Source: Candidatus Bathyarchaeota archaeon
Lineage (GTDB): Archaea; Thermoproteota; Bathyarchaeia; Bathyarchaeales; Bathyarchaeaceae
Length of the DNA stretch: 64,000 nucleotides
NCBI GenBank assembly: GCA_029882515.1
Contig: JAOUKN010000001.1
Location: 5,298 to 69,297 of the forward strand
Direction of reading: 5' to 3'
Every line of letters begins with the position of its first letter. Positions within the stretch are counted from its first letter, which is position 1. The translations under genes were made by a program, and so were the position numbers. The notes under the pieces are model-generated. The model worked only from the letters and a program-made list of their open reading frames with translations. It was not told where the DNA came from and ran no database searches. Shown here in pieces: positions 255-21,201 of this stretch.

Positions 255-401
255 CAGATAGAAGTCCACGATGTGATATTTGGCGATTGTGGAAATGATG
301 AATGGTTCTGCATAGTGGTTGGTTCACCTGATGCTGAAAACCTGATTGAAGCTGGCTTTGAGTTCGTTGATGAAATAAATGATAAGCACTTGTTCCCGTT
401 T
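255..401 (+). pseudogene. Remnant of the C-terminal extension of an archaeal tyrosine-recombinase/integrase-type protein (..DEWFCIVVGSPDAENLIEAGFEFVDEINDKHLF..)
   Basis: It lies inside track ORF 201..566. It matches the pattern I recall from archaeal integrase C-termini (DDEF.CKVA.T..EA..LIEAGFEYV....G.KLFRKRK). No catalytic domain lies upstream, the usual RKRK end is missing, and the frame runs straight into the (CG)4 tract at 402-409. Confidence 0.45.
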
Positions 402-421
402 GCGCGCGCCGTGTATGTGCG
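401..421. repeat. (CG)4 tract plus alternating Pu-Py extension (tGCGCGCGC|cgtgtatgtgcg)
   Basis: Read directly. Pure CG at 402-409. It lies 20 nt downstream of the stop of the minus-strand gene 429..881. Confidence 0.9.
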
Positions 422-428
422 AATGGTA

Positions 429-881
429 CTATTCGGTTTCTTTAACCTTCGGAAATCTTGTCAAAATTTTCTGAATGAATTTATCTTCGAAGTCCCATGC
501 TTCGAGTATGTCTGTTACTTCCTCCATGAGTTCTTCTTTTGTGTATTTCTCCAGTTTCCCAGTTAATTCGTCGAGCGCAAGTCCACAGGCGTACAAATGA
601 ATTCCTTTCTCGCTGGGGGAGATTACAACGTGTATCCCTGATCTTTGGGCTGCTCGGACGTACTTGTCTAGCCCTAGGGGAGACAGCAATGCCTTGGTCA
701 TCAAGGGCACAAGTGCACCTTCTCCTGCAAAAACTGTTGTCTGCCCTTCTTTGGTCGACTCTTCTTTCGTGATTTTTAAGCCCATGCCCTTCAGAACTTC
801 GTGGCAAACTTTAACCACTTCATCAACAGTCGCATTACTAATGAGCAACTTTTTCTCAAAGCAAACAGACATCAATGACAC
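429..881 (-). CDS. Hypothetical protein, 150 aa
   Basis: Track ORF with a soluble-looking sequence. Overlapping ORFs in other frames look like antisense artefacts. No family recognised. Confidence 0.55.
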   Translation of the reverse strand: MSLMSVCFEKKLLISNATVDEVVKVCHEVLKGMGLKITKEESTKEGQTTVFAGEGALVPLMTKALLSPLGLDKYVRAAQRSGIHVVISPSEKGIHLYACGLALDELTGKLEKYTKEELMEEVTDILEAWDFEDKFIQKILTRFPKVKETE

Positions 882-931
882 CGTATTCCTTTCAATTCTT
901 CCAGCTTATTTATCTTTTCTAGTGAGTTAAC

Positions 932-966
932 TGCACGCGCTGGCAAGTCTGCGGGCATGCGCGTGC
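932..966. repeat. Inverted repeat of alternating tracts: GCACGCGC (933-940) / GCGCGTGC (959-966), 18-nt spacer
   Basis: The arms are exact 8-nt reverse complements. The repeat lies 48 nt downstream of the stop of 1014..2096(-) and 52 nt upstream of the start of 429..881(-). Confidence 0.85.
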
Positions 967-1013
967 TGCAAACATTTCCTCGAGAAAACACTACTATGAC
1001 TAGGCGTGCTCGT

Positions 1014-2096: not shown

Positions 2097-2184
2097 AAGC
2101 AGACGCTCTACGCAAAATTACATAATCGATCAAATAAGTTTGCCGAATCGTCTTTCACGGACACGCCTATTTTCAAAGCCCCCA

Positions 2185-2195
2185 ATGCGCGCGCG
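2185..2195. repeat. (CG)4.5 tract (atGCGCGCGCG)
   Basis: Read directly. It lies 91 nt upstream of the start of 1014..2096(-). Confidence 0.9.
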
Positions 2196-2505: not shown

Positions 2506-2520
2506 ACACGCGCGCGTATG
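2506..2520. repeat. (CG)4 tract within a 15-nt perfect alternating Pu-Py run (acaCGCGCGCGtatg)
   Basis: Read directly. It directly abuts the second integrase-type remnant. Confidence 0.9.
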
Positions 2521-2521
2521 A

Positions 2522-2620
2522 ATAGCCACCAAACTAGATGAAATTAAGGAGTTCCTTGAAGCTGGCTTTGATTTCGTCTGTCAAAAAGACGACCTAACGT
2601 ACTTCAGAAAACGCAAATAA
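2522..2620 (+). pseudogene. Second remnant of the integrase-type C-terminal module (IATKLDEIKEFLEAGFDFVCQKDDLTYFRKRK*)
   Basis: Hand translation. It is open only from the stop at 2519-2521, has no start codon, and ends in the typical ..FRKRK*. It shares ttgaagctggctttga.ttcgt with the copy at 346-368. Confidence 0.45.
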
Positions 2621-5059: not shown

Positions 5060-5203
5060 CACACCGTTGAGTTTTTGACGCGATGTTTGCGAGTAGACCC
5101 TATTGCCATTTCCTTTATAAGAATTTAGCTTGAGGAGGCGGTGATATCTCCTGCAATCCGAAATCTTACTTCCGATTTCTACTTTCTCCAAGAAACACAA
5201 AGG

Positions 5204-5212
5204 GCGCGCGTA
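5204..5212. repeat. (CG)3.5 tract (GCGCGCGta)
   Basis: Read directly. It lies 38 nt downstream of the stop of 5248..5931(-). The context agggcgcgcgta is also seen at 13351. Confidence 0.9.
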
Positions 5213-5247
5213 GTTATAGCCAAAATAGCCAGTAAGTTAGTTGACTT

Positions 5248-5931
5248 CTAGATCCATTTAATCGTGGGTTTGACGTAACTTTTATGTTGATCCATCCAGC
5301 GCTTTTCAGGGGCGTCCTTTGGATAGCCAAGCAGGATAGGCCCGTATATTCGTTCACCATCCGTTAGCTCAAGGGCTTGTACGATATCAGCATGGCCTTT
5401 GACCATTGCACCGAATCCTGTATAACAGCTGCCAAGACCGAGAGCGCATGCGGCAAGCATGATGTTCTCGCAGGCAAGCGCGCAACTCACTGCATTACTA
5501 ATTGGGCCTATGATAAAGAGGATGACAGGTGCACCATGGTAAATCATGTCTTTGGGTTCGGGCATCGCCTCATAGAGCTTCATTGCTTTCTCGTAGATTT
5601 CAGGGTCCGTCTCCTTCATGCTTTCAGTCATCTTTTTCCAGATCGGAAGCGCGGTCTGCAAGAGTTTTTGCTTGAACTCTGGGTCCTCAACAACTACAAA
5701 CCGCCACGGCTGAAAACGAAGGACTCCTTTCACCATGCCCATGGTTGAAGGGGCCTGATTGCCAGCCTCGATGATCGTATTGATGACATCCCTCGGAATT
5801 GGTTTAGGCTCATAAGACCTGACCGATCGTCGCTTATGCATAGCTTCAATTACTGGGTTCATCATTAACTTCACTGTCAGGAGGCTAAGACCGGATAGCA
5901 ATAAAAGCGTTCTGATCCGTATTTTGTGCAT
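5248..5931 (-). CDS. Nitroreductase family protein
   Basis: HKRRSVRSYEPKPIP..IIEAGNQAPS signature. The start may be the internal MMNPV (about 5862). Confidence 0.85.
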   Translation of the reverse strand: MHKIRIRTLLLLSGLSLLTVKLMMNPVIEAMHKRRSVRSYEPKPIPRDVINTIIEAGNQAPSTMGMVKGVLRFQPWRFVVVEDPEFKQKLLQTALPIWKKMTESMKETDPEIYEKAMKLYEAMPEPKDMIYHGAPVILFIIGPISNAVSCALACENIMLAACALGLGSCYTGFGAMVKGHADIVQALELTDGERIYGPILLGYPKDAPEKRWMDQHKSYVKPTIKWI

Positions 5932-5969
5932 ACAATCGCTTTCATTTGGACATCCTTCCTTATTTTTGG

Positions 5970-5982
5970 ATGTGCGCGCGCG
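5970..5982. repeat. (CG)4.5 tract in a 13-nt alternating run (atgtGCGCGCGCG)
   Basis: Read directly. It lies in the divergent intergenic region between 5248..5931(-) and 6131..7213(+). Confidence 0.9.
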
Positions 5983-6130
5983 ACATCGATGTCCCTAAAT
6001 ACTCTAGAGACTGTGATCTTAACTGCTCCAATGTTCCAAAGTAGATTGTCCGAGACTCTTTGCAGATGATGCATGCACGCATGATTTATATGTTTAAGTA
6101 ACAATTGCTGTAAATAAAGGGAAAAATGCT

Positions 6131-7213
6131 TTGAATATATTTTTACTAATTATTGTATCTATAACAGGATTTTTTTTGCTTCTCTATATCGGGTTATTAC
6201 TGTATAAGAACTATTTGAGAAATTCGACTAGAATAGAGACATCTAATGGCATAAGTTCATTGGAGGAGATTACCCTTGGTGATTTAAAACAATGGATATT
6301 TATCAGAAGTACAGATCAAAATAATCCAGTTTTGTTATTTTTGCATGGTGGTCCTGGTGCGCCTTTGTTGGGGATGTCAAGTTCGCGTAAATATGATGCT
6401 GAGTTAATTAAGCATTTTACAGTAGTTCATTGGGATCAACGAGGGGCGGGTAAATCATTTAGTGATGATATTCCAATTGATTCAATGACTTTGGATAGAT
6501 TTGTTGAGGACTGTAATGAGTTAATAGATTATTTACGAAATAGATTTCTCACTCAAAAAATCTTTTTAGTTGCTCATTCAGGGGGCACGGTAATTGGAAT
6601 TAAAACTGCACAAAGATATCCGGAGAAAATTCATGCTTATGTTGGAGTGGCGCAAGTTATAAACGAATATGAACAACAAAAAGTTTCATACAAGTTTATA
6701 GTTGAAAAAGCTGAAAAATCTGAAGATTCAGGAAGACAAAATGCTATAAAAGCAATAGGACCACCACCTTATGAATCACCGAAAAAATTCTTAAAAATGT
6801 CTGGGTATGTTGCTAAATATGGAGGACTCTTGCATAGTAAGTCTATGATGGATATGATAATTATAGCGTTAGACTTCTTAACTTCGCCTGAATATTCATT
6901 ATTAGAAGGAATTAGAACATTCAGAAATAAAGGATTTGATTTTACTATTAATGCAATGTGGGAGGAATTGAAAAATGTCAATCTTACAAAAGAAATTCAA
7001 TCTATTAAAGTCCCCATATACTTCTTTGAAGGAAAATACGATGTGGCTACTCCCACAGTTGTTGTTGAGAAATTTTATGACAATTTAGATGCTGAAAAAG
7101 GTAAAAAGCTATTCATTTTTGAAAATTCAGGGCATATGCCAATGATGGAAGAAAAAGAGAGATACGAGGAATTATTGATAAATGTTGTTTTGAAAGATAA
7201 TCTGAATAAATAA
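6131..7213 (+). CDS. Alpha/beta hydrolase, proline-iminopeptidase-like (S33), with N-terminal TM anchor
   Basis: LFLHGGPGAP, DQRGAGKS and the nucleophile elbow VAHSGGT. The gene is markedly more AT-rich than its neighbours. Confidence 0.85.
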   Translation: MNIFLLIIVSITGFFLLLYIGLLLYKNYLRNSTRIETSNGISSLEEITLGDLKQWIFIRSTDQNNPVLLFLHGGPGAPLLGMSSSRKYDAELIKHFTVVHWDQRGAGKSFSDDIPIDSMTLDRFVEDCNELIDYLRNRFLTQKIFLVAHSGGTVIGIKTAQRYPEKIHAYVGVAQVINEYEQQKVSYKFIVEKAEKSEDSGRQNAIKAIGPPPYESPKKFLKMSGYVAKYGGLLHSKSMMDMIIIALDFLTSPEYSLLEGIRTFRNKGFDFTINAMWEELKNVNLTKEIQSIKVPIYFFEGKYDVATPTVVVEKFYDNLDAEKGKKLFIFENSGHMPMMEEKERYEELLINVVLKDNLNK

Positions 7214-7518
7214 TAAACTCAAAAATGAAAGCGATTAATTATGACAAATAGGATCACATAGACCGGCATGATCAATTTGCTAGAAGAAGTAGATTCTGTC
7301 CAAATTGTAGAAGGATGAAGAGCGCTTTAGATGAGGCATTTGAAAGGAAACGCTAACACCTGAAAGAAGAATTCCAAGAATAAAAGTTGGAAAAAGACGA
7401 ACTCTTGAAGCGTTGATTAATGAAGAAGTTTTATTGCTGGCAAAATATCAAGAGATGAGTGTGATAAATGGGCTTTCAGAATTGTGAACATTGACTAGAT
7501 ATCCGTTAACCTTCCTGA

Positions 7519-7884
7519 TTAGACCCAGTTCCATGCATACCAAACAGTCAGTACATTAAACCCAAGTCCTACAATTATCAAAAATTTGTCATAAGCTCCA
7601 GGGTAACCAGGCAATCCAATGAGATTAAAACCAAGCAAGAATATGGCTACAATGATGTTTACCCAGCGAATCAAAGGATAGGTCAACGTTAGGGACAAGA
7701 AAAGCATCACAATCGGAATCAGCATTAATATTGCCATTAACATCAACATTGTCTGCGTCAGTTGCTTACCTCCCACTTGCCCCGCTGTAAAGTCACCGGC
7801 AAATATTCGCAGCACATCCCCCAAAAGATAAACTAACATTAAAGCTACCCACAATCCTGAAAGGATTATTCTCACATCGTCCAT
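7519..7884 (-). CDS. Small polytopic membrane protein (DUF6326-like)
   Basis: 121 aa with four predicted TM helices. The N-terminus LSGLWVALMLVYLLGDVLRIF resembles that family. Confidence 0.55.
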   Translation of the reverse strand: MDDVRIILSGLWVALMLVYLLGDVLRIFAGDFTAGQVGGKQLTQTMLMLMAILMLIPIVMLFLSLTLTYPLIRWVNIIVAIFLLGFNLIGLPGYPGAYDKFLIIVGLGFNVLTVWYAWNWV

Positions 7885-7957
7885 AATTCAATCACATCCG
7901 TTGGACAATTGTCCTTGCTTAATATTTCAGGTTTGGGTTTGGGGGTTAAGATTTAAT

Positions 7958-7973
7958 CCAACCAACCAACCAA
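7958..7973. repeat. (CCAA)4 microsatellite
   Basis: Read directly, in an intergenic region. Confidence 0.9.
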
Positions 7974-8125
7974 GGCACGGCTAACAGCTAAGCCAATCAC
8001 AGGCTAATAAACGACTGGCATGTCAACCTGTTTCTCCTGAACCACATACCACATAATAACCTTTGGTTAGCGCCTGAAAATTGAGATTTGGAATGGGAAA
8101 CTTGAGAGTAAGTATTTCCTTATTA

Positions 8126-8135
8126 ACGCGCGCGC
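8126..8135. repeat. (CG)4.5 tract (aCGCGCGCGC)
   Basis: Read directly. It ends 3 nt before the stop codon (8139-8141) of 8139..8927(-). Confidence 0.9.
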
Positions 8136-8138
8136 TTC

Positions 8139-8927
8139 TTACTGTGGACCTATTGTGGAGCCACCAGATGTATTGACATCGATCGTGGTGGGGTTCCCTG
8201 TGTATTTGAGGTGTGAGCCTCCGCTTACGTCACCATCTAATCTGCCATCAAGGTTTACTGTTGCGTGGCTTCCACCACCTAGGTTGACAGTGGTATCATG
8301 AACAGGGAAATCCGAGAGGTCCAAGTGGCTTCCGCCAGAAGCGCTGATGGTCAGGTCATTGGCTGCACCGTCCAGTCCAATCAAATGACTTCCTCCAGAC
8401 AGGGTAAATTGGGCATCTTCACTGGTCGTAAAGTCGCCACTGAGATAGCTACCTCCCGATAAGTCGACAGCATATTCATGCGAAGAGGTAAATCCTTCAA
8501 CGGTACCGTGTGTTCCTCCTGAAAGCTTCAACTCGTAAAGGTCAGGCATTGTGATTTCGGCTCTCAAGATTACATCTTGATAACTATAGCCCCATTTGAG
8601 ACCGATTGTCAGGGTATCTCCAGTCTGAGAAACCTCGATATAACCGAACATATTGTCGTCTGCCATTATGTTGATGCTATATGAATCTGCTTGGCCAATA
8701 TCAACCTCAAAACCCCATCCCACTTCAACAATCGTGAAATCAGTGAAGTCCTTCTCTTCGGTATCTAATGTTCCAGAACCGGCTACATGACCGAATGGTT
8801 TCCAAAATCCAAGTAAGACTGCCGATATCACTACGGCCACTACAGACCCTACTACAATAATGATTATCAAAGCAATGACCAGAGTGCTTATGGCATGCGT
8901 GTTTGTTTTCAACTGCTTTCTACTCAT
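8139..8927 (-). CDS. Membrane-anchored beta-rich protein, DUF2807/DUF4097-like (adhesin head GIN-type repeats)
   Basis: N-terminal TM helix followed by a reiterated SGGSHL/GGGSH periodicity. Confidence 0.55.
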   Translation of the reverse strand: MSRKQLKTNTHAISTLVIALIIIIVVGSVVAVVISAVLLGFWKPFGHVAGSGTLDTEEKDFTDFTIVEVGWGFEVDIGQADSYSINIMADDNMFGYIEVSQTGDTLTIGLKWGYSYQDVILRAEITMPDLYELKLSGGTHGTVEGFTSSHEYAVDLSGGSYLSGDFTTSEDAQFTLSGGSHLIGLDGAANDLTISASGGSHLDLSDFPVHDTTVNLGGGSHATVNLDGRLDGDVSGGSHLKYTGNPTTIDVNTSGGSTIGPQ

Positions 8928-9022
8928 CCTACATCACGCATTACGTATCCTGTTACAGTTTTTATGACTTGTGCAAGAATCTAAAAAGATCAGATTAAGT
9001 GTCCATTCTCAGTATTCTTCAT

Positions 9023-9031
9023 TGCACGCGC
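9023..9031. repeat. Alternating tract tGCACGCGC
   Basis: Read directly. It immediately abuts the stop of 9032..9712(-). Confidence 0.85.
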
Positions 9032-9712
9032 TCAGGTGAGATCGGTAAATATCAATTCTCTTCTATTCTTGCCAACCATTCTAATCGCACCCATTTTTCT
9101 GAGACAATAAGTCATCTTTCGTGTTAGGTAAAGGGGGATTCCTGTTAGATCTGCAAGGCTTCGGTTAGTGAATGGTCTTTCAAGGTCATTTGGCAAAAAT
9201 CTGCGAAAATCAACTTCATCCTTCAGAAAAACTCTATCCCTGACATCAATCAATTTTCTGTCTTTAATGCTTACTCCCCTTCTTCTCCAGCTTCCCTTGC
9301 CATCGTTACATCTTATCTCTTCTTCCTCAATCATCAAAACGTCCAACGAAAAATTCTCTCTAGCAATCAGATTAGGGATACTCACTAGCTCATAGAATAG
9401 ATCAACCAGCTTTCTCTTTCTCGGAGACTTTCTCTTACTTATTAATTCGCTTGACTCTGTAGTTCGAACTATCCATTTCCTCTCTGGAATGGGATACACT
9501 AGTCGGACTTCATGATTTTCAACCAAACTTGAAAGTTTCCTTTTAATAGCCCGAAAACTCTTGGTTTGAACTTCAATCAGAAGACTTCCCCTTAAAATGT
9601 CAATGATGAACCCATCTATCCTAGCCTCAAATCTGTCTTCTGGAAGTGAATACCACTCTTTGATCGCTGAATGAAGTAAATGTTCGTTCATTATTCCCCG
9701 AATAGATGACAT
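9032..9712 (-). CDS. PD-(D/E)xK nuclease-like protein with a C-terminal wHTH-like domain
   Basis: IDGFIIDIL..LLIEVQTKSF resembles a D..ExK core. The basic C-terminal part is helix-rich. Family not named. Confidence 0.45.
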   Translation of the reverse strand: MSSIRGIMNEHLLHSAIKEWYSLPEDRFEARIDGFIIDILRGSLLIEVQTKSFRAIKRKLSSLVENHEVRLVYPIPERKWIVRTTESSELISKRKSPRKRKLVDLFYELVSIPNLIARENFSLDVLMIEEEEIRCNDGKGSWRRRGVSIKDRKLIDVRDRVFLKDEVDFRRFLPNDLERPFTNRSLADLTGIPLYLTRKMTYCLRKMGAIRMVGKNRRELIFTDLT

Positions 9713-9891
9713 GGGATAATAGCATTGTTAACACTAAGGAATATACATCAAAAGGTATTGGCGCGTGCCTTTCACTTCCAAGAACTCTGCAGTAGAACCG
9801 ATCTGATACTAAAGATTTGGGAAAGAATCCTCTACCCAAACCAAAAAAAGGGAGTTGTGCGGGAGACATCTCCACATGCCTTTGGTTTATT

Positions 9892-9905
9892 TGCGCGCGC
9901 GTGTA
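9892..9905. repeat. (CG)4.5 tract in a 14-nt alternating run (tGCGCGCGCGtgta)
   Basis: Read directly. It lies 51-64 nt downstream of the stop of 9956..10375(-). Confidence 0.9.
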
Positions 9906-9931
9906 GTATTCTGGACTCGCTTAGAGGAGAG

Positions 9932-9956
9932 GTGCGTGCGCATAGTATGTGTGCAT
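9932..9956. repeat. Two alternating Pu-Py runs (gtgcgtgcgcata, tatgtgtgcat)
   Basis: Read directly. They directly abut the stop of 9956..10375(-). Confidence 0.85.
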
Positions 9957-10375: not shown

Positions 10376-10402
10376 AAGGCTATATAGAGCAGGGTCGTTT
10401 CC

Positions 10403-10433
10403 TGCGCGCGCGCGGATCCTTCTTCGCGCGCGC
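10403..10433. repeat. Paired tracts (CG)5.5 and (CG)4.5 separated by gatccttctt; potential 9-bp all-GC hairpin
   Basis: GCGCGCGCGCG at 10404-10414 and CGCGCGCGC at 10425-10433. They lie between the stop of 10501..11469(-) and the start of 9956..10375(-). Confidence 0.9.
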
Positions 10434-10494
10434 CAAGTGTATTAGTCCATGTTGAAATTTGTGCGGGCGCATCTTGAAGACGCCTTGGGGGTTC

Positions 10495-10500
10495 CGCGCG
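10495..10500. repeat. (CG)3 tract
   Basis: CGCGCG directly abuts the stop codon (10501-10503) of the ArsR-like gene. Confidence 0.85.
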
Positions 10501-11469: not shown

Positions 11470-11871
11470 CTATTGATCAATCTTGAATTTCCTCGGCGAT
11501 ACTAACATTCCCACATTGTTCTTAACTTCCTCTATCAGATATTAATGTTCCCAAACTCTTCTTGCGGAGACTTTATCACAAAAGTCTTGGATGTTTGATA
11601 GTAGGTGAAGAAAAATGGGAAATGGAAAAATGAGTTTGAACAGATTGAAAATACAGAAGGTGCTTCGATTGGTTGGAATGAACGGAGGTTTTGAGCAGTC
11701 ATCGGGTCTCCAACAACAAGTTGTTCATGGAGGCGTCTCTTCAGGCAACTATCACAACAATTGGAAGGAAATCGAAGCTGCTTCATTAGAAGCAGAATAC
11801 AATAAAGCGAAAGCACTAATGGAACTGCAGAAACGATTTATCTGTTAAAAGTCGCCACTGTCACAGAAAAA

Positions 11872-11882
11872 ACACACGCGCG
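11872..11882. repeat. Alternating run acacaCGCGCG
   Basis: Read directly. It lies 18 nt upstream of ORF 11900..12145. Confidence 0.85.
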
Positions 11883-11899
11883 AAATTGCGGATGAAAAA

Positions 11900-12145
11900 A
11901 TGGAACACACATTCTCTATAGAGATCAGGTCAAGGATGCATGTCAAGTCAATAGAATACTGTTGCTCAAGCAAGTCCAACGACCGGGTGTTGTTCGAGGG
12001 ATCTCTAGGTAAACTGGAAGAACTATCCATGGTCGAAGGCAAGGTTCTGGAGATAAAGGGTACAAATGGGATACTGAGAATAGATCTTAGCGAGGACATG
12101 CTGTGTAAGATGCTCTCTCATACGCACCCGCGCGCGAGACTTTAA
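11900..12145 (+). CDS. Possible small beta-rich protein, 81 aa
   Basis: Track ORF. The sequence looks protein-like (VLFEGSLGKLEELSMVEGKVLEIKGTNGILRIDLSEDML). Its last codons (PRARL*) are encoded by the CG tract at 12129-12136. Confidence 0.3.
   Translation: MEHTFSIEIRSRMHVKSIEYCCSSKSNDRVLFEGSLGKLEELSMVEGKVLEIKGTNGILRIDLSEDMLCKMLSHTHPRARL
12129..12136. repeat. (CG)4 tract
   Basis: Read directly (cacCCGCGCGCGaga). Confidence 0.9.
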
Positions 12146-12300
12146 GTAGTTATTTAACGTTTCAAGCTATAGTATTTCAAATGAGAGAGAATTCCTATGA
12201 GAACAAAACCATGCAATCCCACGTTCTCAGTTCAAACGAGCAATATTTGGAATTGTCGATGGATAAATGTAAAAACACGGAAACACAGAACGAAGGGATT

Positions 12301-13203
12301 CTAGGATGCTTTACGAAGGAAGTTGGTGAGGATTGTCACTATCGTTTCGGGGCAATCTTCCTGTAACCAGTGGCTGGCGTCAGGCAACTCGTAGCTTTTC
12401 GTGCGAGGATACACTTTCTTCCACCAATCGAGTGTTCTTTTGGGAAAAATGGGGTCCTTCATTCCCCAGATTATGATTTTTTCTTTGTCCCTTAGGAGAT
12501 CCAAGTTCCGTTCAATTGAACGCATAGTCTTAGCGCTAGGATGGTCATCTCCGACTGGAATATCTCTCGGAAAAGCTATGGCTCCGATACAAGAAGCACG
12601 ATTCGGGAAAGGCGCTGTATAAGCACGAATCACAGTCTCACTTGGAGGTCCACTCACAAGGGTCGCTGCAAACATCCTTGGAATGAACGTCGCCATATTG
12701 CCGAGAACATCTTCGTAAATTCCTTTTTCTTCCATGTCAGAAATCCAAGTTTTTGCGCCTGCAGGTAAGACCCCTACCCCCGTATTCATAATTACCAACC
12801 GTTTTACCTTTTCAGGATGGGTGGTAGCAAAACCCAAGGATATAGGACCTCCCCAATCCTGACAGACCAGCGTGATATCTTTCAAATCCAATTCAAGGAG
12901 AAGTTTTCTGAAGTTGTCGATGTGTTGAGCCAAAATGTAAGGCTTATCTTGAGGAACATCACTTTTGCCAAAGCCCATATGGTCCGGAACTACTACACGG
13001 TTAAACTTGGATAAGGGTGTTATGAATTTTCGATATAAATAACCCCAAGTTGGTTCTCCATGAACACAAACCATGGGCTCCCCTTTTCCTTCATCAACAT
13101 AATGCATCTGAAAACCATTTATCTCTCTGAAGTTCGGCTTGAACGGAAACGTTCTATCAAAAGTCTCGTTACGAATATCCTCCTTCAAACAACCATTCTC
13201 CAC
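12301..13203 (-). CDS. Haloalkane dehalogenase-like alpha/beta hydrolase
   Basis: HGEPTWGYLYRKF and the nucleophile motif QDWGGPI. 300 aa. Confidence 0.85.
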   Translation of the reverse strand: MENGCLKEDIRNETFDRTFPFKPNFREINGFQMHYVDEGKGEPMVCVHGEPTWGYLYRKFITPLSKFNRVVVPDHMGFGKSDVPQDKPYILAQHIDNFRKLLLELDLKDITLVCQDWGGPISLGFATTHPEKVKRLVIMNTGVGVLPAGAKTWISDMEEKGIYEDVLGNMATFIPRMFAATLVSGPPSETVIRAYTAPFPNRASCIGAIAFPRDIPVGDDHPSAKTMRSIERNLDLLRDKEKIIIWGMKDPIFPKRTLDWWKKVYPRTKSYELPDASHWLQEDCPETIVTILTNFLRKAS

Positions 13204-13353
13204 ACACCCGTAACTGGTGCCTAGTTAAATCTCTTAGGTTTTCATTAGAGAGGAAAAATGAAGAGTTTGCGGGAGATAACCACACTCTATGTTGTGCGCA
13301 GATTAGTTTTGAACCCTACAGCATTCTTTTAACGTTGATTGTAATTCTTTAGG

Positions 13354-13363
13354 GCGCGCGTAT
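13354..13363. repeat. (CG)3.5 tract (GCGCGCGtat)
   Basis: Read directly. It lies 19 nt downstream of the stop of 13379..13642(-). Confidence 0.9.
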
Positions 13364-13378
13364 CAGTCACAAGAAATA

Positions 13379-13642
13379 TTAGAGCATCAGATCACTGATG
13401 GTGTGAAGGTGTTCGAGAAACTTCACGCCCTTCTGAGTGGTTGTATAAACTGTCTTCTCACCTTTCATGGTCTCCTGCAAGAGCCCAACGTCCAAAAGAA
13501 AAGCCATGTAGCCCTTCAACTGATCAAAACTCAAATTTGCCCCATACATAATGTGGGTCTTCAAGCACCCGTTCTTCGTCATCTCCAAAATCTCAGCCAT
13601 AATGTACGTTCGATTCCGGCGTTTATGCCCATCAGACACCAA
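13379..13642 (-). CDS. Small winged-helix DNA-binding protein (HTH_45-like)
   Basis: RTYIMAEILEMTKNGCLKTHIMYGANLSFDQLKGYMAFLLDVGLL. 87 aa, TTG/GTG start. Confidence 0.7.
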   Translation of the reverse strand: MVSDGHKRRNRTYIMAEILEMTKNGCLKTHIMYGANLSFDQLKGYMAFLLDVGLLQETMKGEKTVYTTTQKGVKFLEHLHTISDLML

Positions 13643-13683
13643 CTAGCTCTCCTGCAACACCATTCTGTAATTGTCTATGACAT

Positions 13684-13756
13684 TCTTAAGGAAGCGAATT
13701 CTAAAAAGGGGTACTCCTGCAACACTAATATTCTCCAAAGAAACTATTCGATTTGG
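13684..13756 (-). promoter_or_regulatory. 73-bp intergenic element, copy A (inverted relative to copy B at 32741-32813)
   Basis: Hand alignment gives 66/73 identical to 32741-32813. It ends 41 nt upstream of the start of 13379..13642(-). Confidence 0.7.
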
Positions 13757-13851
13757 TGCACAAAACAATGCGCACGCAGTCAAGCCAGTTCTCTATTCTG
13801 ATTCTTTTGGTGAAAAAGTGATAACGAAGCGCCCGCTTTCACCAATGGAAT

Positions 13852-17441: not shown

Positions 17442-17452
17442 CGTGCGCGCAT
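17442..17452. repeat. Alternating run cgtGCGCGCat
   Basis: Read directly. It lies 20-30 nt downstream of the stop of 17472..18248(-). Confidence 0.85.
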
Positions 17453-18372: not shown

Positions 18373-19647
18373 TTGCATGCAGCCAACCTTCGAAACGTCT
18401 TAGTCATAGGTTTAGATGTCGTTTCATTGGCTGCCTCTGCCAAAAGGGCTGGCTATCACGTTTATGCTGCGGATTTTTTTGGAGATCAAGATCTTAAACC
18501 TCTGTGCCAGAAAAATCGTTCAATCATCAAGCAGAGACCCTGGAAAACTTGTGGACAAATAAGTACCGATTTCAATCCAGCAGCCCTCCTCCAGCTAGCC
18601 CGAGCCCTTCTGAAAATGAACGCCATAGATGCGGCGTTATTGTCGTCAGGCTTAGACGACTCCTTAGACGTTCTATTTGAGCTCAACGACGTGATTCCCA
18701 TACTTGGAAACCATCCCAACGTGATCCAAAAGGTACGTGATAAAATGCGATTTTTCCAGGAGCTTAAACGCTTAGGGATACCGCATCCTGAAACCGCATT
18801 CGCTGAGAATTACACGGAAGCAAGAGACACAGCCAAAGATGTCGATTACCCCGTTCTGATTAAGCCTTCACAGAGTTTCGGAGGCGCAGGGATACGAAAG
18901 GCGGAGAATCCCAGAGAATTTGCGCAAGCATTCCGAGAGGCTTCGTTCTACGATGAACGAGTTTTGATTCAAAAATATATTTCCGGAACACCTGCAAGTG
19001 CGTCTCTGATCTCCTCTGCTAATGGAGCTGTTGCTCTGACATTGAATGAACAATTGCTAGGAGTAGAAGCGGTGGGTCAAGAAGAGCCTTTTGGCTACTG
19101 CGGAAATATCGTTCCTCTAGTGATGTCCAGAGCGGTTACGGAGAACTGTAAAGCCATTGTTGAACGAATTGCGGCGCGCTTTGGTCTTGTCGGATCTAAC
19201 GGAGTAGACTTCGTAATATCCCAAGAAGGAACACCCTACGTTATCGAAGTCAATCCCCGTTTTCAAGGAACTCTAGAATGCGTCGAACGGGTCCTCGGAA
19301 TAAACATCGTAAAAACACATGTGCAAACGTGTTCTGAAGGGACCCTTCCGACAATCGCGAAAACCTCTCAACGCTTTTGCAGCAGACTCATCTTGTTTGC
19401 CCCGCAACGCTCACTCATGCCAGACCTAACTGCTTTCAAGGAAGTTAGCGATATTCCCCTCACAAGTGTCATTGTGGAGAAGGGGGAACCAGTCTGCTCT
19501 ATAGTTGCAGAGGGAGCAGAACGACTTTCTTCATTCAGAAGCACAATGATTGTCGCGGAATCTATCCGCAAGTTACTGCTGCCAGTTGATGGCGGGCCAC
19601 CAGAATCCCAAGCGCGCTCTTTCCAGAGTTTTGGTGAAACTACGTAG
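18373..19647 (+). CDS. ATP-grasp enzyme (COG2232-like carboligase)
   Basis: YPVLIKPSQSFGGAGI and GSNGVDFVI...YVIEVNPRFQG are ATP-grasp signatures. Confidence 0.75.
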   Translation: MHAANLRNVLVIGLDVVSLAASAKRAGYHVYAADFFGDQDLKPLCQKNRSIIKQRPWKTCGQISTDFNPAALLQLARALLKMNAIDAALLSSGLDDSLDVLFELNDVIPILGNHPNVIQKVRDKMRFFQELKRLGIPHPETAFAENYTEARDTAKDVDYPVLIKPSQSFGGAGIRKAENPREFAQAFREASFYDERVLIQKYISGTPASASLISSANGAVALTLNEQLLGVEAVGQEEPFGYCGNIVPLVMSRAVTENCKAIVERIAARFGLVGSNGVDFVISQEGTPYVIEVNPRFQGTLECVERVLGINIVKTHVQTCSEGTLPTIAKTSQRFCSRLILFAPQRSLMPDLTAFKEVSDIPLTSVIVEKGEPVCSIVAEGAERLSSFRSTMIVAESIRKLLLPVDGGPPESQARSFQSFGETT

Positions 19648-19839
19648 GAGAGCGAGAGCCTTCGTGAATTGGGAGTTCATTTCAATCCCTAGCGCAATTT
19701 GGTTCGATTCAGCCAAGAATGCACAGTTTTAAATATTCTTCTGTATTTTTATAAAGATGAAGAAGCGGGAGGATAGAATCTGAGTTTAGTTGACACTATT
19801 TCCCGAAAACTTCGGGTTCGGAAATGGCAATCTCTTTTA

Positions 19840-20229
19840 TTGGTTGTAGTCGGGATAACAATCCTATGTACCTATTATATCACTAGTGCTGCAACCGGTG
19901 AAGGAAAGAATTACCTTCTCACGATTACATTGGATAAAGATGTGTACCAGCAAGGTGAAAGAATGTACATTACGATAAAAAACGTGTCAAACGAAACATT
20001 GCACTTTACTAACTCAAACTATGGCTTGGAATATCAATTTTGGAATGGGTTCAGCTGGACGTTTTTCATAGGGATGCCCGGTCGAATGGTTGTCGTGGAG
20101 TTGAAACCGGGAGAAATTGGATACGTCCAACATTCTCTAGTCGGAAGCTGGTATCTTGAAGTTGGAAAATGGCGGGTCGGAGACAGCTATTATGACTGTT
20201 GGACTGAATTCTTCGTAATTCTTGACTGA
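19840..20229 (+). CDS. Hypothetical anchored Ig-like/beta-sandwich protein
   Basis: Track ORF with TTG start. TM helix followed by a beta-rich domain. Confidence 0.45.
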   Translation: MVVVGITILCTYYITSAATGEGKNYLLTITLDKDVYQQGERMYITIKNVSNETLHFTNSNYGLEYQFWNGFSWTFFIGMPGRMVVVELKPGEIGYVQHSLVGSWYLEVGKWRVGDSYYDCWTEFFVILD

Positions 20230-20325
20230 ATCTCAATCATTGAAGAACATGGGTTCGCGCAAGAAATTAGAACCTTCATATTACGCAGAAGGATGTTACG
20301 AAACCACTAAAGTAATTCCATTCTA

Positions 20326-21084
20326 TTAAGCACGCTTGGCCTTAGACGCTTCTCCTTTTTTGGTACTCATTGCAAAAGGACGGAAGTCTAGTTTTCTCAT
20401 AGCTTTGATTAGTGGAGGTCCAACGGTTGTCGTTACCAGAATAGAGATCGCTACCTTTATGGGAGTTATGGCAGCTGCTTCAACCCAAATGGGAACCAAC
20501 TGGTCTACTGTGAATTCATAGAAGAGCCGATAAGTTTGACCTGGAATGAAAACGAAAATTCTGAGCAGTATGTCAGCTTCTAATCCAATCAGGGCCGACA
20601 ACGCAATGATGTACACTAACCCTTTAGATTCGGGATGCCATATCCTCTTCCAAATCATCATCGTCACAGCAACTACTAGAAGAACGGCGTAGGCCAGATA
20701 GACGTCCCACATGCCCCAGATGGGAAGCTGCCCGGCAATGGGCGTAACGAGATAAAATCCAAGGAGGGCAGTGTAGTAAGTCAGAACGATCTTCCATCTT
20801 CCTCTAAAAACGAACCCGGCCATCATAGCTCCCAGCGGAGCTCCCAAGGTAAAAAGAAACTCGTACACATCTCTGAAATATATAGAATGGCCAATCATGA
20901 CTCCGATCAGGCTGGACAGGAATCCGGCATACGGTCCGAGGACAATACCATTAATGGGTTCTACTATGAAAATCCAACCAGTCCACACTCCAGATGATAA
21001 CTCGGGTAAGCCTGTCAAGGAATCCAAAATGGCATTAATGGACGCAAAGAGAGCCACGAGAGCCAAAAACTGAGATTTTCTCAT
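20326..21084 (-). CDS. Polytopic membrane protein (possibly an ECF-type substrate-capture component)
   Basis: 252 aa with about 6 TM helices. The assignment is weak. Confidence 0.5.
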   Translation of the reverse strand: MRKSQFLALVALFASINAILDSLTGLPELSSGVWTGWIFIVEPINGIVLGPYAGFLSSLIGVMIGHSIYFRDVYEFLFTLGAPLGAMMAGFVFRGRWKIVLTYYTALLGFYLVTPIAGQLPIWGMWDVYLAYAVLLVVAVTMMIWKRIWHPESKGLVYIIALSALIGLEADILLRIFVFIPGQTYRLFYEFTVDQLVPIWVEAAAITPIKVAISILVTTTVGPPLIKAMRKLDFRPFAMSTKKGEASKAKRA

Positions 21085-21189
21085 TTTCTTTCCTTCATAA
21101 TGCCGTAGGCTGTTGCTAATAAATCTTCGATTGTGCGTGGCCGCTCTATTTCAGGAGTGTTCTAGTTGTGATACGCTACGTTCTAGACC

Positions 21190-21201
21190 TGTGTGCGCGC
21201 A
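21190..21201. repeat. Alternating run tgtgtGCGCGCa
   Basis: Read directly. It ends 6 nt before the stop codon (21208-21210) of 21208..21702(-). Confidence 0.85.

What the first reader, a model, noticed from the sequence alone, without database searches (positions are those of the whole stretch)
401..21201. (CG)n / alternating purine-pyrimidine tracts punctuate gene boundaries, mostly just past stop codons
I found 19 pure CG tracts of 6 nt or more in intergenic DNA or in the last codons of an ORF.
- Eleven are 8-11 nt: 402, 2187, 2509, 5974, 8127, 9893, 10404, 10425, 12129, 28033, 62691.
- Three are 7 nt: 5204, 13354, 48939.
- Five are 6 nt: 10495, 11877, 17445, 21195, 32629.
Many extend through CA/TG steps into perfect alternating runs of 9-15 nt, for example 2506-2520, 9892-9905 and 47913-47925.
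Related CA/TG-rich runs occur at 932-966, 9023-9031, 9932-9956, 13768-13778, 22198-22210, 22260-22272, 41278-41295 and 46320-46329.
Inside about 50 kb of coding sequence I noticed only about six short tracts of 6-7 nt (3556, 5478, 19174, 19612, 28971, 50400).
A rough base-composition estimate predicts fewer than one (CG)4 in 64 kb.
Sixteen tracts lie 0-60 nt from a stop codon. Distances in nt: 402:20, 933/959:48, 5204:38, 8127:4, 9024:1, 9893:55, 9932-56:0, 10495:0, 13354:19, 17445:22, 21195:8, 47913:1, 48939:8. Tracts 12129, 28033 and 35291 fall inside the terminal codons.
Seventeen of the 19 pure tracts are in the left 22 kb.
Such tracts are the classical Z-DNA-forming sequence, and they are self-complementary at the RNA level.
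I know of no described archaeal terminator, promoter or recombination site of this form. Archaeal terminators are oligo-T, and integron attC sites look different.
Possible roles: a 3'-end or termination signal, a supercoil-absorbing boundary between transcription units, a recombination hotspot delimiting gene cassettes, or a methylation target (GCGC/CGCG/GCGCGC).
Basis: partly seen in the sequence, partly recalled or inferred. Interest (0 to 1): 0.85.

Follow-up and report, generated by a model that had tools for sequence, protein, structure and literature searches.

The report
GC palindromes marking variable-DNA junctions
Short GCGCGCGC palindromes are far too common between the genes of this uncultured archaeon (Bathyarchaeia), and they sit where stretches of DNA have been inserted, deleted or swapped, so they look like join points of the flexible genome rather than stop signals for transcription.

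Summary
The window is a Bathyarchaeia metagenome contig (43% G+C). It has 11 pure alternating C/G tracts of 8-11 nt, where 0.3-1 is expected. Eight independent assemblies give identical sequence, so the tracts are not artefacts.

I pooled 1.56 Mb from 127 related loci.
- 75% of 97 tracts are intergenic, against 21% of the DNA.
- They lie closer to gene 3' ends than random intergenic positions do.
- Lengths peak at 8-10 nt, in the register T(GC)4-5A.

The tracts are not a general gene-end signal.
- They avoid conserved gene neighbourhoods: 10% of tract-bearing spacers lie between genes that are adjacent in another locus, against 50% of tract-less spacers.
- 84% border a gene found in no other locus.
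- Some lie in promoter-only (divergent) spacers.
- They do not travel with a gene that recurs in other contexts.
- Single tracts form no local hairpin.

In the window they fill an 8.6 kb island, and an adjoining variable region, of decayed integrative elements that close relatives lack. In several cases homology between genomes stops exactly at a tract. One integrase remnant is cut at four different points, each capped by a tract.

Best reading: the tracts are recombination or repair junctions, and hotspots, of the flexible genome. The enzymology is unresolved. I found no prior description.

The parts
402..409 (.). GCGCGCGC tract, 20 nt past the stop of orf147 (429-872, minus strand)
2187..2195 (.). 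GCGCGCGCG tract, 90 nt upstream of the methyltransferase start. Together with 2509 it brackets a 313-nt segment holding a small membrane-protein-like ORF.
2509..2516 (.). CGCGCGCG tract that caps the truncated 5' end of a tyrosine-recombinase gene remnant
2517..2620 (+). Remnant of the C-terminus of a tyrosine recombinase (...LDEIKEFLEAGFDFVCQKDDLTYFRKRK*), convergent with the DNA ligase. Longer versions in relatives match PF00589.
5204..5210 (.). GCGCGCG tract at the ligase-side edge of the inserted island, 37 nt past the nitroreductase stop
5201..13851 (.). Island of accessory genes inserted between the TPR gene and the NTP-transferase/ligase pair. These genes are adjacent in the closest relatives. 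The island holds 8 of the window's 15 tracts of at least 7 nt.
5974..5982 (.). GCGCGCGCG tract in a divergent spacer, about 70 nt upstream of the conserved nitroreductase promoter module
8127..8135 (.). CGCGCGCGC tract, 3 nt past the DUF2807 stop
9843..9879 (+). Copy of the end motif of a family of integrative elements (AAAAAAAGGGAGTTGTGCGGGAGACATCTCC). The attachment-site part that follows it in relatives is missing. Tract 9893 lies 19 nt (nhmmer 18) beyond the motif.
9893..9901 (.). GCGCGCGCG tract inside an 809-nt stretch without a called gene (9692-10500)
10404..10433 (.). Two tracts (11 and 9 nt) separated by 10 nt. This is the only place where tracts form a strong hairpin (-23.6 kcal/mol).
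10495..10500 (.). CGCGCG abutting the stop of the HTH regulator gene. A weak end-motif copy lies at 10455-10480.
11877..11882 (.). CGCGCG (ACACACGCGCG run) between two small ORFs
12129..12136 (.). CGCGCGCG tract in the last codons of a 69-aa ORF, 164 nt past the hydrolase stop
13254..13278 (+). Second copy of the integrative-element end motif, just upstream of the hydrolase gene
13354..13360 (.). GCGCGCG tract, 18 nt past the HTH_45 stop and 76 nt outside the end motif
13768..13778 (.). Degenerate alternating run ATGCGCACGCA, 74 nt past the TPR stop, at the TPR-side edge of the island
17442..17452 (.). CGTGCGCGCAT run between the SDR stop and the rhomboid promoter. This is a synteny break. L009 has GCGCGCGCG at the equivalent place next to a different upstream gene.
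21190..21201 (.). TGTGTGCGCGCA run, 7 nt past a stop codon
28033..28040 (.). CGCGCGCG tract in the terminal codons of gene 28029-29177
31138..31183 (+). (TG)5CA run followed 6 nt (nhmmer 8) later by a third end-motif copy (AAAAAGGAATTTTGCGAGAGACATCTCC)
47913..47925 (.). TGCGCACGCGCAT run abutting a stop codon in a convergent spacer
48939..48945 (.). GCGCGCG tract in a divergent spacer
62691..62700 (.). TGCGCGCGCGCA, the full consensus palindrome, in a tandem spacer

Best explanation
The tracts are short perfect palindromes with consensus T(GC)4-5A. They mark, and probably help to make, the joins between blocks of DNA in the flexible part of some Bathyarchaeia genomes.

**Shown.**
- The tracts are strongly over-represented and have a preferred length and register.
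- They sit in DNA that relatives lack.
- They avoid spacers between genes whose adjacency is conserved.
- They cluster near the ends of a family of tyrosine-recombinase integrative elements.
- In several pairs of genomes, sequence homology stops exactly at a tract.
- At two sites the tract itself is kept in several genomes while the DNA on one side differs in each.
- One integrase remnant is cut back to four different lengths in four lineages, each time capped by a tract.

**Inferred.**
- A tract is a preferred place for breaking and rejoining DNA.
- Because every tract is self-complementary and identical in both orientations, any two tract-bearing ends can pair over 8-10 bases. Insertions, replacements and one-sided deletions would therefore all leave a tract at the join.
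- New tracts arise at joins, either by fill-in or snap-back synthesis on self-complementary ends or through a sequence-specific enzyme.
- Selection then leaves them where they do no harm: just past stop codons and upstream of promoters.

Whether a dedicated nuclease, transposase or recombinase recognises T(GC)nA, or whether the tracts act passively (Z-DNA or cruciform breakage plus microhomology-mediated joining), is not resolved.
For: **Excess and defined form.**
- 21 occurrences of the 8-mers against fewer than 1 expected in the window.
- 97 tracts in 1.56 Mb of 127 related sequences.
- The length spectrum is 192, 58, 45, 35, 12, 3 for lengths 6 to 11. This is a bump at 8-10 on top of a geometric decay.
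- Even-length tracts are in the GC register 46 times and the CG register 11 times. The base after the terminal C is A in 63% of cases.

**Link to variable DNA.**
- In about 35 relatives the TPR gene and the ligase are neighbours with no tract between them.
- The closest relatives (85% ligase identity) have TPR, NTP-transferase and ligase contiguous and no tracts. The window has 8.6 kb inserted there carrying 8 tracts of at least 7 nt.
- The syntenic block at 13.8-25.3 kb has only 6-nt runs.
- 5 of 49 tract-bearing spacers lie between genes adjacent in another locus, against 697 of 1394 tract-less spacers (P = 1.3e-8). This holds in every spacer-length class.
- 84% border a gene found in no other locus, against 44%.
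- Tract counts are strongly clumped among loci (chi2 = 369, 125 df).

**Junction cases.**
- The integrase remnant is truncated at different points in the window, L004/L154, L012 and L106. Each truncation ends in a tract, while L010, L111 and L119 keep the longer gene with no tract at those positions.
- L009 has tract-75 nt-tract-39 nt-tract inserted at the stop of DUF123, where L003, L004, L111, L134 and L137 are uninterrupted.
- L134 and L137 are 94% identical over 5.1 kb and part 3 nt before L134's tract.
- L003, L099, L103 and L102 share 2.2 kb up to a conserved tract, and the DNA beyond it differs.
- L112, L146 and L002 share one flank, carry tract variants at the boundary and differ on the other side.
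- In L052 about 75 nt of the ligase gene are replaced by ATG(CG)6, with a frameshift.

**Link to integrative elements.** 8 of 27 end-motif copies have a tract within 100 nt, against 4% of random positions.

**Evidence against the gene-signal alternatives.**
- Homologues of the nitroreductase at 83-88% identity sit in three unrelated contexts, and none is flanked by a (GC)n tract.
- 7 of 49 tract-bearing spacers are divergent.
- Single tracts fold no better than shuffled sequence.
Against: - No enzyme is identified, and nothing in the window encodes an obvious candidate.
- Not every junction has a tract. The island's join to the NTP-transferase promoter region is not at the tract, and the W/L099 hydrolase breakpoint has none.
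- Intact-looking integrative elements such as the one in L132 have no tract. Tracts could therefore be a by-product of decay rather than an agent of it.
- Several tracts lie just inside element ends. They could instead be a native part of some elements.
- The sample covers only one genomic neighbourhood (around the ligase gene) in many genomes, plus one 71-kb contig. It is not a whole-genome survey.
- My gene calls outside the window are simple ORF calls.
- The L052 case comes from a metagenome-assembled genome and would inactivate an essential gene.
- The tracts show no length variation within the population, so they are not highly unstable at this length.
Confidence: 0.5

Rival explanations
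1. The tracts are a gene-end signal carried by each transcription unit. Possible forms are a 3'-end or termination signal, an mRNA-stabilising element, or a Z-DNA-forming buffer that absorbs supercoils between units.
For: - Intergenic tracts are closer to 3' ends than random intergenic positions: median 91 against 195 nt, and 23% against 12% within 25 nt.
- They are depleted within 25 nt upstream of starts.
- In the contig extension there is one tract per spacer, 4-90 nt past stops.
- One tract sits just after a T-rich stretch and is kept in four genomes.
- (GC)n is the classic Z-DNA-forming sequence (established knowledge).
Against: - Tracts are nearly absent from conserved gene neighbourhoods: 10% against 50%.
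- 7 of 49 tract-bearing spacers are divergent.
- Homologues of the same gene in other genomes lack them.
- The closest relatives have none across 20 kb of the same genes.
- Single tracts form no hairpin.
- Tracts of 8-10 bp are short for Z-DNA at natural supercoiling (established knowledge).
- The closeness to stop codons is equally expected if selection simply tolerates junctions there.
Confidence: 0.12
2. The tracts are the recognition or terminal sequence of a dedicated mobile-DNA enzyme (a transposase, site-specific recombinase or nuclease encoded elsewhere in the genome). Any segment bounded by two T(GC)nA sites can then be moved, and one-ended reactions give deletions anchored at a tract. 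This is a sub-case of the best explanation, with a specific agent.
For: - The length peak at 8-10 nt, the fixed GC register and the T...A flanks point to a defined site rather than open-ended slippage.
- The integrase remnant shows deletions with one end at a tract and a variable other end.
- Clusters of tracts have short unrelated spacers.
- Distribution among lineages is sharply patchy.
- A tract is conserved while variable DNA lies on one side of it.
Against: - No candidate gene was found in the window or the loci.
- No target-site duplication flanks the L009 insertion.
- Inter-tract segments share no terminal sequence beyond the tract.
- 8-10 bp is shorter than any characterised transposon end or recombinase site (established knowledge).
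- The nitroreductase module moves without tracts.
Confidence: 0.2
3. The tracts are native parts of one family of integrative elements, for example a replication, packaging or regulatory site near the element end. They are frequent here only because the region is a graveyard of such elements.
For: - 8 of 27 end-motif copies have a tract within 100 nt, against 4% by chance. Seven (L027, L037, L099, L105, L106, L111, L119) lie on the interior side, five of them within 100 nt.
- The window has end-motif copies at 9843, 13254 and 31158, each next to a tract or an alternating run.
- Tracts are tied to accessory DNA.
Against: - 16 of 27 motif copies have no tract within 250 nt, including the best-preserved element, in L132.
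- Tract positions relative to the motif vary from 0 to 160 nt and fall on both sides.
- Tracts also cap truncated genes, and replace coding sequence, at arbitrary points.
- There are many more tracts than element ends in the window.
Confidence: 0.12
4. The tracts are neutral by-products of mutation: replication slippage or biased mutation in unconstrained intergenic DNA, which is simply more abundant in accessory regions.
For: - The tracts are intergenic.
- Coding examples arise by plain point substitutions (L015 against L018).
- Degenerate alternating runs could be decay products.
Against: - Only the rarest dinucleotide repeat is enriched: CG 11 against 1-4 for the others.
- The length spectrum has a bump at 8-10 rather than a tail.
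- There is a register and flank preference.
- No length polymorphism appears among eight assemblies.
- The depletion from conserved spacers holds within spacer-length classes.
- GC6 and GC8 are generally under-represented in prokaryotes (PMC4060949).
Confidence: 0.05

Closest known systems
REP elements and BIMEs of bacteria (repetitive extragenic palindromes), reported also in archaea (PMC2817692, PMC3733652, PMC12306157)
   Same: - Short GC-rich palindromes confined to intergenic DNA.
- Many lie within 1-20 nt of the upstream stop codon.
- They often occur in clusters with short spacers.
- They are abundant in some genomes and absent from close relatives.
- They are linked to genome plasticity.
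   Different: - REPs are 20-40 nt imperfect palindromes that fold into hairpins. They carry a GTAG or CGTC tag and are moved by a RAYT transposase.
- These tracts are 8-12 nt perfect simple-sequence palindromes.
- They have no tag and no local fold, and no RAYT was seen.
- Their defining property here is coincidence with homology breakpoints.
GC clusters of yeast mitochondrial DNA and other mitochondrial palindromic or 'palindromic microsatellite' elements (PMC4478555, PMC7218506)
   Same: - GC-rich or simple palindromic elements scattered in the intergenic DNA of an AT-richer genome.
- They are optional between close relatives.
- They are flanked by indels and rearrangements.
- They are regarded as mobile and recombinogenic.
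   Different: - Those elements are 30-50 bp structured elements, or (A)n/(T)n palindromes, in organelles.
- Here the elements are pure (GC)4-5 in an archaeal chromosome, tied to integrative-element remnants.
Integron gene cassettes and attC sites, including archaeal integrons (PMC9668308)
   Same: - Arrays of mostly co-oriented accessory genes.
- Each gene is followed closely by a short recombination-associated sequence.
- Tyrosine-recombinase remnants lie nearby.
   Different: - attC sites are 55-140 nt folded single-strand structures with R/L boxes, and they travel with their gene.
- The tracts do not fold.
- They do not travel with the gene.
- They have no orientation.
- No IntI-type integrase is present.
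Z-DNA-forming alternating purine-pyrimidine sequences as hotspots of deletion and recombination, and the 'RY box' upstream of the haloarchaeal bop gene (my own knowledge: Freund et al. 1989; Wang and Vasquez 2006; Yang and DasSarma 1990s)
   Same: - The same sequence class.
- These sequences are known to provoke breaks, deletions and recombination in bacteria and eukaryotes.
- An archaeal precedent exists for a supercoiling-sensitive alternating tract near a promoter.
   Different: - Such sequences are generally avoided in prokaryotic genomes (PMC4060949), whereas here they are enriched.
- The known instability removes repeat units or flanking DNA. It does not explain how new tracts appear at joins.
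DNA uptake sequences (DUS/USS) of Neisseria and Haemophilus (my own knowledge)
   Same: - A short motif over-represented far above chance.
- It is often found just downstream of genes, sometimes as inverted pairs.
- It is spread by a drive linked to DNA exchange.
   Different: - DUS/USS are non-palindromic 9-12-mers spread through core genes at about 1 per kb.
- These tracts avoid the conserved core.
Repeat-generating polymerases: dinucleotide expansion by Pol mu during end joining (PMC3592450), and protein-templated alternating poly-d(CA) synthesis by DRT3b (PMC13174585)
   Same: They are precedents for enzymes that add or expand alternating dinucleotide tracts at DNA ends without a conventional template. 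The filler-synthesis variant of the model needs exactly this.
   Different: - No such enzyme is identified here.
- The products in those systems are not (GC)n and are not known to be fixed at chromosomal junctions.

Membership tests
Integron cassette array (attC sites) | Each cassette ends in an attC site: 55-140 nt with imperfect inverted repeats that fold as a single strand | tested here: not met
   61-nt stretches around five single tracts fold no better than shuffled sequence (z = +0.6 to +1.8). Only the double tract 10404/10425 folds. Rfam finds nothing in the window.
Integron cassette array (attC sites) | The recombination site travels with its gene when the cassette moves | tested here: not met
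   Nitroreductase homologues at 83-88% identity sit in three other contexts. The conserved module ends about 20 nt past the stop, and no (GC)n tract adjoins it.
Integron cassette array (attC sites) | An IntI-type integrase with an adjacent attI site | tested here: not met
   Only decayed PF00589 remnants of an integrative-element integrase are present. There is no intact integrase in the window.
REP/BIME elements | A 20-40 nt imperfect palindrome forming a stem-loop, with a conserved GTAG or CGTC head | tested here: not met
   The tracts are 8-13 nt. The flanks show only a T...A preference, and there is no local fold.
REP/BIME elements | Intergenic, frequently within about 20 nt of the upstream stop codon, and clustered | tested here: met
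   75% are intergenic and 23% lie within 25 nt of a 3' end. Clusters occur in the window (10404-10500), L009 and L052.
REP/BIME elements | An associated RAYT (IS200/IS605-like) transposase in the genome | not testable with these tools
   Only about 71 kb of this genome is available, and none was seen in it.
MITE or transposon with terminal inverted repeats | Multiple copies with similar internal sequence, flanked by target-site duplications | tested here: not met
   24 inter-tract segments share no similarity. No duplication flanks the clean insertion in L009.
Intrinsic or archaeal oligo-T terminator | A T-run (archaea), or a hairpin plus T-run, at the transcript end, present wherever the gene is | tested here: not met
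   There is no consistent T-run next to the tracts and no hairpin. Tracts occur in divergent spacers and are absent from conserved spacers.
Z-DNA-forming element | An alternating purine-pyrimidine tract, best (CG)n | tested here: met
   The sequence itself meets this. Alternating runs of at least 12 nt are 4-fold enriched.
Z-DNA-forming element | Adopts the left-handed form in vivo, or binds a Z-DNA-binding protein | not testable with these tools
   This needs chemical or antibody probing under supercoiling.
Microsatellite (slippage-driven simple repeat) | A length distribution with a tail, and length polymorphism between close strains | tested here: not met
   There is a bump at 8-10 nt with a sharp cut-off. 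Eight assemblies show no length differences.

The most novel reading that the evidence does not exclude
Some Bathyarchaeia have a so far undescribed way of joining DNA in which broken or incoming ends acquire, or are cut at, a self-complementary T(GC)nA tract. Because every such end can pair with every other in either orientation, the tracts would act as universal linkers that let gene-sized modules be inserted, swapped and trimmed. This would be a cassette system without attC-type sites, driven by a dedicated nuclease, polymerase or recombinase still to be found.
Probability: 0.2. Interest if true: 0.9.

Novelty: new variant of a known kind. Interest (0 to 1): 0.62.

Why it matters
- Alternating GC tracts are normally avoided in prokaryotic genomes. 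Here they are enriched 20-fold or more, and they trace the seams of the accessory genome.
- If they are join points, they give a simple sequence tag for mapping where and how often gene modules have been inserted or deleted in Bathyarchaeia. This is a very abundant, uncultured sediment lineage whose gene-exchange mechanisms are unknown.
- If a dedicated enzyme is behind them, it would be a new recombination or end-joining chemistry built on self-complementary linkers.
- If they act passively, they would be a natural case of Z-DNA-prone palindromes shaping genome architecture.
- Either outcome can be tested with existing metagenomes and a few biochemical assays.

Tried and rejected
- **Assembly or consensus artefact.** Rejected. 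Eight independent assemblies are identical, and the same kind of tract occurs in dozens of unrelated metagenomes.
- **Phage or plasmid origin of the left 22 kb.** No DNA match in the phage or plasmid collections. There is only one weak PHROG hit, to a small HTH protein.
- **Known RNA families or tRNAs in the window.** None found.
- **MITE-like copies.** Inter-tract segments share no similarity.
- **Promoter element.** Distances to TATA-like boxes are inconsistent, and tracts are depleted just upstream of starts.
- **5'/3' pairing of tracts flanking one gene, as an RNA structure.** I did not pursue this beyond noting that any two tracts can pair. The synteny data made a DNA-level reading more productive.
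- **Restriction site (BssHII GCGCGC, FspI TGCGCA) cut, fill-in and religation cycles.** I considered this as a source of +4 nt expansions in the GC register. It is attractive but untestable here, and 9-mers are too common for a pure +4 rule.
- **Homology ends near tracts.** My test gave 11 of 95 tracts against 3.3% of random positions. It is confounded by gene ends, so I used it only to find cases, which I then read one by one.
- **Two exact-protein look-ups found nothing** because the start codons I chose differed from the called genes.
- **Literature searches** for (GC)n in archaea, and for mobile elements or integrons in Bathyarchaeia, returned nothing relevant.

Full report
**What the window is.** Pfam hits (ATP-dependent DNA ligase, FilR1-type regulator and others) and a scan with the ligase protein place the window in Bathyarchaeia. 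It corresponds to contig ena:ERZ27296342:k141_946297 (73 kb), read in reverse. The same population was assembled independently by Logan from three runs, in a second ENA assembly, and as NCBI GCA_029880175.1. These assemblies match the window at 99.84-100% identity with no gap at any tract. The tracts are therefore in the DNA, and they show no length polymorphism.

**The observation.**
- The two 8-mers occur 21 times (overlapping), against 0.3-1.0 expected under Markov orders 0-3.
- No other dinucleotide repeat behaves this way: CG 11, against AT 1, AC 1, AG 4, CT 3 and GT 3.
- Alternating purine-pyrimidine runs of at least 12 nt are 4-fold enriched (30 against 7.2 +/- 2.8), and two thirds are intergenic.
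- With the pipeline's gene calls transferred to window coordinates, none of the 11 long tracts is deep inside a solid gene. Eight are intergenic, one lies in a doubtful ORF that overlaps another gene, and two are in the last codons of a gene.
- Nine of the 11 lie in the left 22 kb (P = 0.002).

**Is it general?** I fetched 67 ligase loci from reference genomes and 80 from metagenomes. I pooled the Bathyarchaeia ones with the window, giving 127 sequences and 1.56 Mb.
- There are 97 tracts of at least 8 nt. 75% are outside ORFs, against 21% of the DNA (P = 6e-30).
- Intergenic tracts are nearer to a 3' end than random intergenic positions: median 91 against 195 nt (P = 0.0015).
- They are rarer within 25 nt upstream of a start: 4% against 13%.
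- The length spectrum (4615, 821, 192, 58, 45, 35, 12, 3 for lengths 4-11) shows a separate population peaking at 8-10 nt.
- Even-length tracts are in the GC register 46 times and the CG register 11 times. The base beyond the terminal C is A in 63% of cases. The unit is therefore the palindrome T(GC)4-5A.
- Counts per locus are highly clumped (chi2 = 369, 125 df). Some lineages have 5-9 tracts in 10 kb, while sister lineages have none in 20 kb.

**Where they are in evolutionary terms.**
- In about 35 relatives a TPR gene lies directly upstream of the ligase, 70-220 nt away, and no tract lies between them.
- The closest relatives (85% ligase identity: L087, L088, L090) have TPR, NTP-transferase and ligase contiguous and no tract at all.
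- The window has 8.6 kb of accessory genes (5201-13851) inserted between TPR and NTP-transferase. Eight of the window's 15 tracts of at least 7 nt are in it.
- The DNA downstream of the ligase, and the 7 kb of contig beyond the window's left end, are also non-syntenic. They carry about one tract per spacer.
- The block at 13.8-25.3 kb, which is syntenic with relatives, has only 6-nt runs.

**A formal synteny test on all loci.** I clustered ORFs into families and classed each spacer by whether its two genes are adjacent in any other locus.
- Adjacency is conserved for 5 of 49 tract-bearing spacers, against 697 of 1394 tract-less ones (odds ratio 0.11, P = 1.3e-8). This holds in every spacer-length class.
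- 84% of tract-bearing spacers border a gene with no homologue in the other 126 sequences, against 44%.
- Spacers with degenerate alternating runs of at least 12 nt show the same trend more weakly: 35% against 51% conserved (P = 0.009).

**The island is a stack of decayed integrative elements.**
- L132 has, at the same place, a 3.7-kb insertion. It is bounded by the direct repeat AATTCTTAT(A), which is the TATA region of the NTP-transferase promoter.
- At one end of that insertion lies a characteristic motif (GGAGATGTCCCCCGCAAACTCCCCTTTTTT). At the other lies a degenerate integrase ending ...FRKRK*.
- Longer remnants of this integrase match the C-terminal end of PF00589 (E = 1.5e-6).
- In L037 and L033 the same end motif precedes a tRNA 3' fragment.
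- A profile of the motif finds 27 copies in the data set. The window holds copies at 9843-9875, 13254-13278 and 31158-31183. A weaker copy at 10455-10480 is visible by eye.
- Eight of the 27 copies have a tract within 100 nt, against 4% of random positions.
- The window also carries a 34-codon remnant of the integrase C-terminus, convergent with the ligase (2517-2620).

**Junction cases read base by base.**
- (a) The integrase remnant next to the ligase is about 80-110 codons long in L010, L111 and L119. It is cut back to four different lengths in L012, the window, L004/L154 and L106. In each of those four the cut end is a tract, and the DNA beyond it is unrelated. The longer genes have no tract at those positions.
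- (b) L009 carries GCGCGCGC-75 nt-CGCGCGCGC-39 nt-GCGCGCGCGC inserted at the stop codon of DUF123. L003, L004, L111, L134 and L137 run straight through at that point.
- (c) L134 and L137 are 94% identical over 5.1 kb and diverge 3 nt before L134's tract.
- (d) L003, L099, L103 and L102 share 2.2 kb at 86-89% identity, ending exactly at a conserved tract. Beyond it L003 differs. L099 has a 1.5-kb element-like insertion carrying the end motif, and L103's sequence resumes after that insertion.
- (e) L112, L146 and L002 share one flank and carry GCGCGCGCG, TGCGCGCCCG and TGTGCGTGCA at the boundary. They differ completely on the other side. This also ties the CA/TG-rich runs to the pure tracts.
- (f) In L052 about 75 nt of the ligase gene are replaced by ATG(CG)6, with a frameshift. 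This case comes from a metagenome-assembled genome and should be treated with care.

**Tests of the gene-signal readings.**
- Single tracts do not sit in local hairpins. Five 61-nt stretches fold worse than their shuffles, and only the double tract at 10404/10425 folds (-23.6 kcal/mol). They are therefore neither attC-like nor hairpin terminators.
- Tract-bearing spacers are tandem (33), convergent (9) and divergent (7). In the window, 5974 and 48939 lie in promoter-only spacers.
- The nitroreductase gene, bracketed in the window by tracts 5204 and 5974, has homologues at 75-89% identity all over Bathyarchaeia. Three homologues at 83-88% lie in three unrelated neighbourhoods.
- The conserved module in those homologues is the promoter (AACGCTTTTAT), the ORF and about 20 nt. 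No (GC)n tract adjoins it in L166 or L168. In L165 it is flanked by (CATG)n-type alternating runs instead. The tract therefore belongs to the place, not to the gene.
- The hydrolase gene shared with L099 (80% nucleotide identity) loses homology 13 nt upstream of its start, with no tract at that breakpoint in either genome. Not every junction has a tract.

**Interpretation.**
- What is shown: a defined palindrome, T(GC)4-5A, is strongly over-represented in some Bathyarchaeia, is tied to recently rearranged or acquired DNA and to integrative-element remnants, and repeatedly sits exactly at homology breakpoints.
- Cases (d) and (e) show that a tract can persist while the DNA on one side is exchanged. 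That is the behaviour of a hotspot.
- Cases (a), (b) and (c) show tracts at joins where the undisturbed sequence has none. Tracts are therefore also created or brought in when DNA is joined.
- A single idea covers both behaviours. Self-complementary ends pair with any other such end in either orientation, so breaks at tracts, or ends given such tracts, can be rejoined to anything that carries one.
- Closeness to stop codons and distance from start codons then follow from selection. Joins are tolerated right after a gene but not inside its promoter.
- I could not tell which route generates and uses the tracts. The candidates are:
  - a dedicated enzyme, which the length peak, register and flank preference favour;
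  - passive breakage of a Z-DNA or cruciform-prone sequence followed by microhomology joining;
  - filler synthesis, for which there are precedents in other systems (PMC3592450, PMC13174585).
- A competing view, that tracts are native parts of the integrative elements, explains the proximity to end motifs. It does not explain the tract-free elements or the arbitrary truncation points.

**Comparison with what is known.**
- Surveys find GC6 and GC8 generally under-represented in prokaryotes (PMC4060949), and only mild Z-DNA enrichment in archaea overall (bioRxiv 10.64898/2025.12.30.697008).
- The nearest described things are REP/BIME elements, mitochondrial GC clusters and palindromic microsatellites, and integron attC sites. 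The defining features of each were tested and mostly not met (see the membership table).
- My searches found no description of (GC)n tracts at archaeal gene boundaries or junctions. The searchable library lacks most subscription journals.

**Limits.**
- The comparative sample is one neighbourhood seen in many genomes, not whole genomes.
- ORF calls outside the window are crude.
- All sequences are metagenomic.
- Mechanism is inferred from anatomy only.

Noticed in passing
window 5201-13851, and the contig beyond the window's left end (L068 14335-21692): An 8.6-kb island of accessory genes (nitroreductase, two alpha/beta hydrolases, DUF6326, DUF2807, DUF8091, two HTH regulators) is inserted between the TPR gene and the NTP-transferase/ligase pair. 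These genes are contiguous in the closest relatives.
   Followed up: yes
window 9843-9875, 13254-13278, 31158-31183 (weaker copy at 10455-10480); L132 5630-5660; L119 3993-4025: A conserved motif of about 30 nt (AAAAAGGGAGTTGTGCGGGAGACATCTCC) marks one end of a family of Bathyarchaeia integrative elements. It lies next to attachment sites that are a tRNA 3' fragment (L037, L033) or a promoter TATA region (L132). 27 copies occur in the 127 sequences.
   Followed up: partly
window 2517-2620 (+): A remnant of the C-terminus of a tyrosine recombinase (...EAGFDFVCQKDDLTYFRKRK*) lies convergent with the DNA ligase. The spot downstream of the ligase is an integration hotspot in many relatives.
   Followed up: yes
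window 13684-13756 and 32741-32813: A 73-nt inverted repeat at 90% identity. One copy lies just beside the alternating run 13768-13778 at the island edge, upstream of the HTH_45 gene. The other lies in a 610-nt spacer near GCGCGC at 32629. It may be a duplicated promoter or an element-related sequence.
   Followed up: partly
window 9692-10500: An 809-nt stretch without a called gene. It contains four tracts, two end-motif remnants, alternating runs at 9932-9956 and an uncalled 139-aa ORF (9956-10375) with no family match. It looks like a graveyard of element ends.
   Followed up: partly
window 6000-8000: A low-G+C segment (35% against 43% for the window) covering the plus-strand hydrolase and DUF6326. 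This compositional oddity is consistent with recent acquisition.
   Followed up: no
L052 10101-10200 (CP070791.1): The DNA ligase gene of this genome has about 75 nt replaced by ATG(CG)6 and is frameshifted. Either it is a pseudogene in a genome with a second ligase, a population variant, or an assembly problem.
   Followed up: partly
L165 3640-3700 and 4480-4560: A nitroreductase homologue is flanked by (CATG)n-type alternating runs (ATGCATGCATG; TGCATGCATGCAT; GCATGCGCACGCACACA) and lies next to a tRNA-like 3' fragment. L010 likewise has GCATGCATGC at the end of its integrase remnant. Other palindromic alternating repeats may play the same role as (GC)n.
   Followed up: no
pooled loci (oriented with the ligase on the + strand): Odd-length tracts are strand-asymmetric. 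GCGCGCG occurs 43 times against 15 for CGCGCGC, and GCGCGCGCG 22 times against 13 for CGCGCGCGC. This is unexplained. It may reflect gene orientation or replication direction around the ligase.
   Followed up: no
window 234-566 (+) and 429-872 (-): Two called genes overlap by 138 nt on opposite strands. Neither has a family match, and tract 402 lies inside the first. One of the two calls is probably spurious.
   Followed up: no
window 5880-5960; L165, L166, L168: The nitroreductase start codon called by the pipeline (TTG at 5901) is probably wrong. Alignment with three homologues conserves a promoter (AACGCTTTTAT) and an ATGATGAAC start about 45 nt downstream of it.
   Followed up: partly
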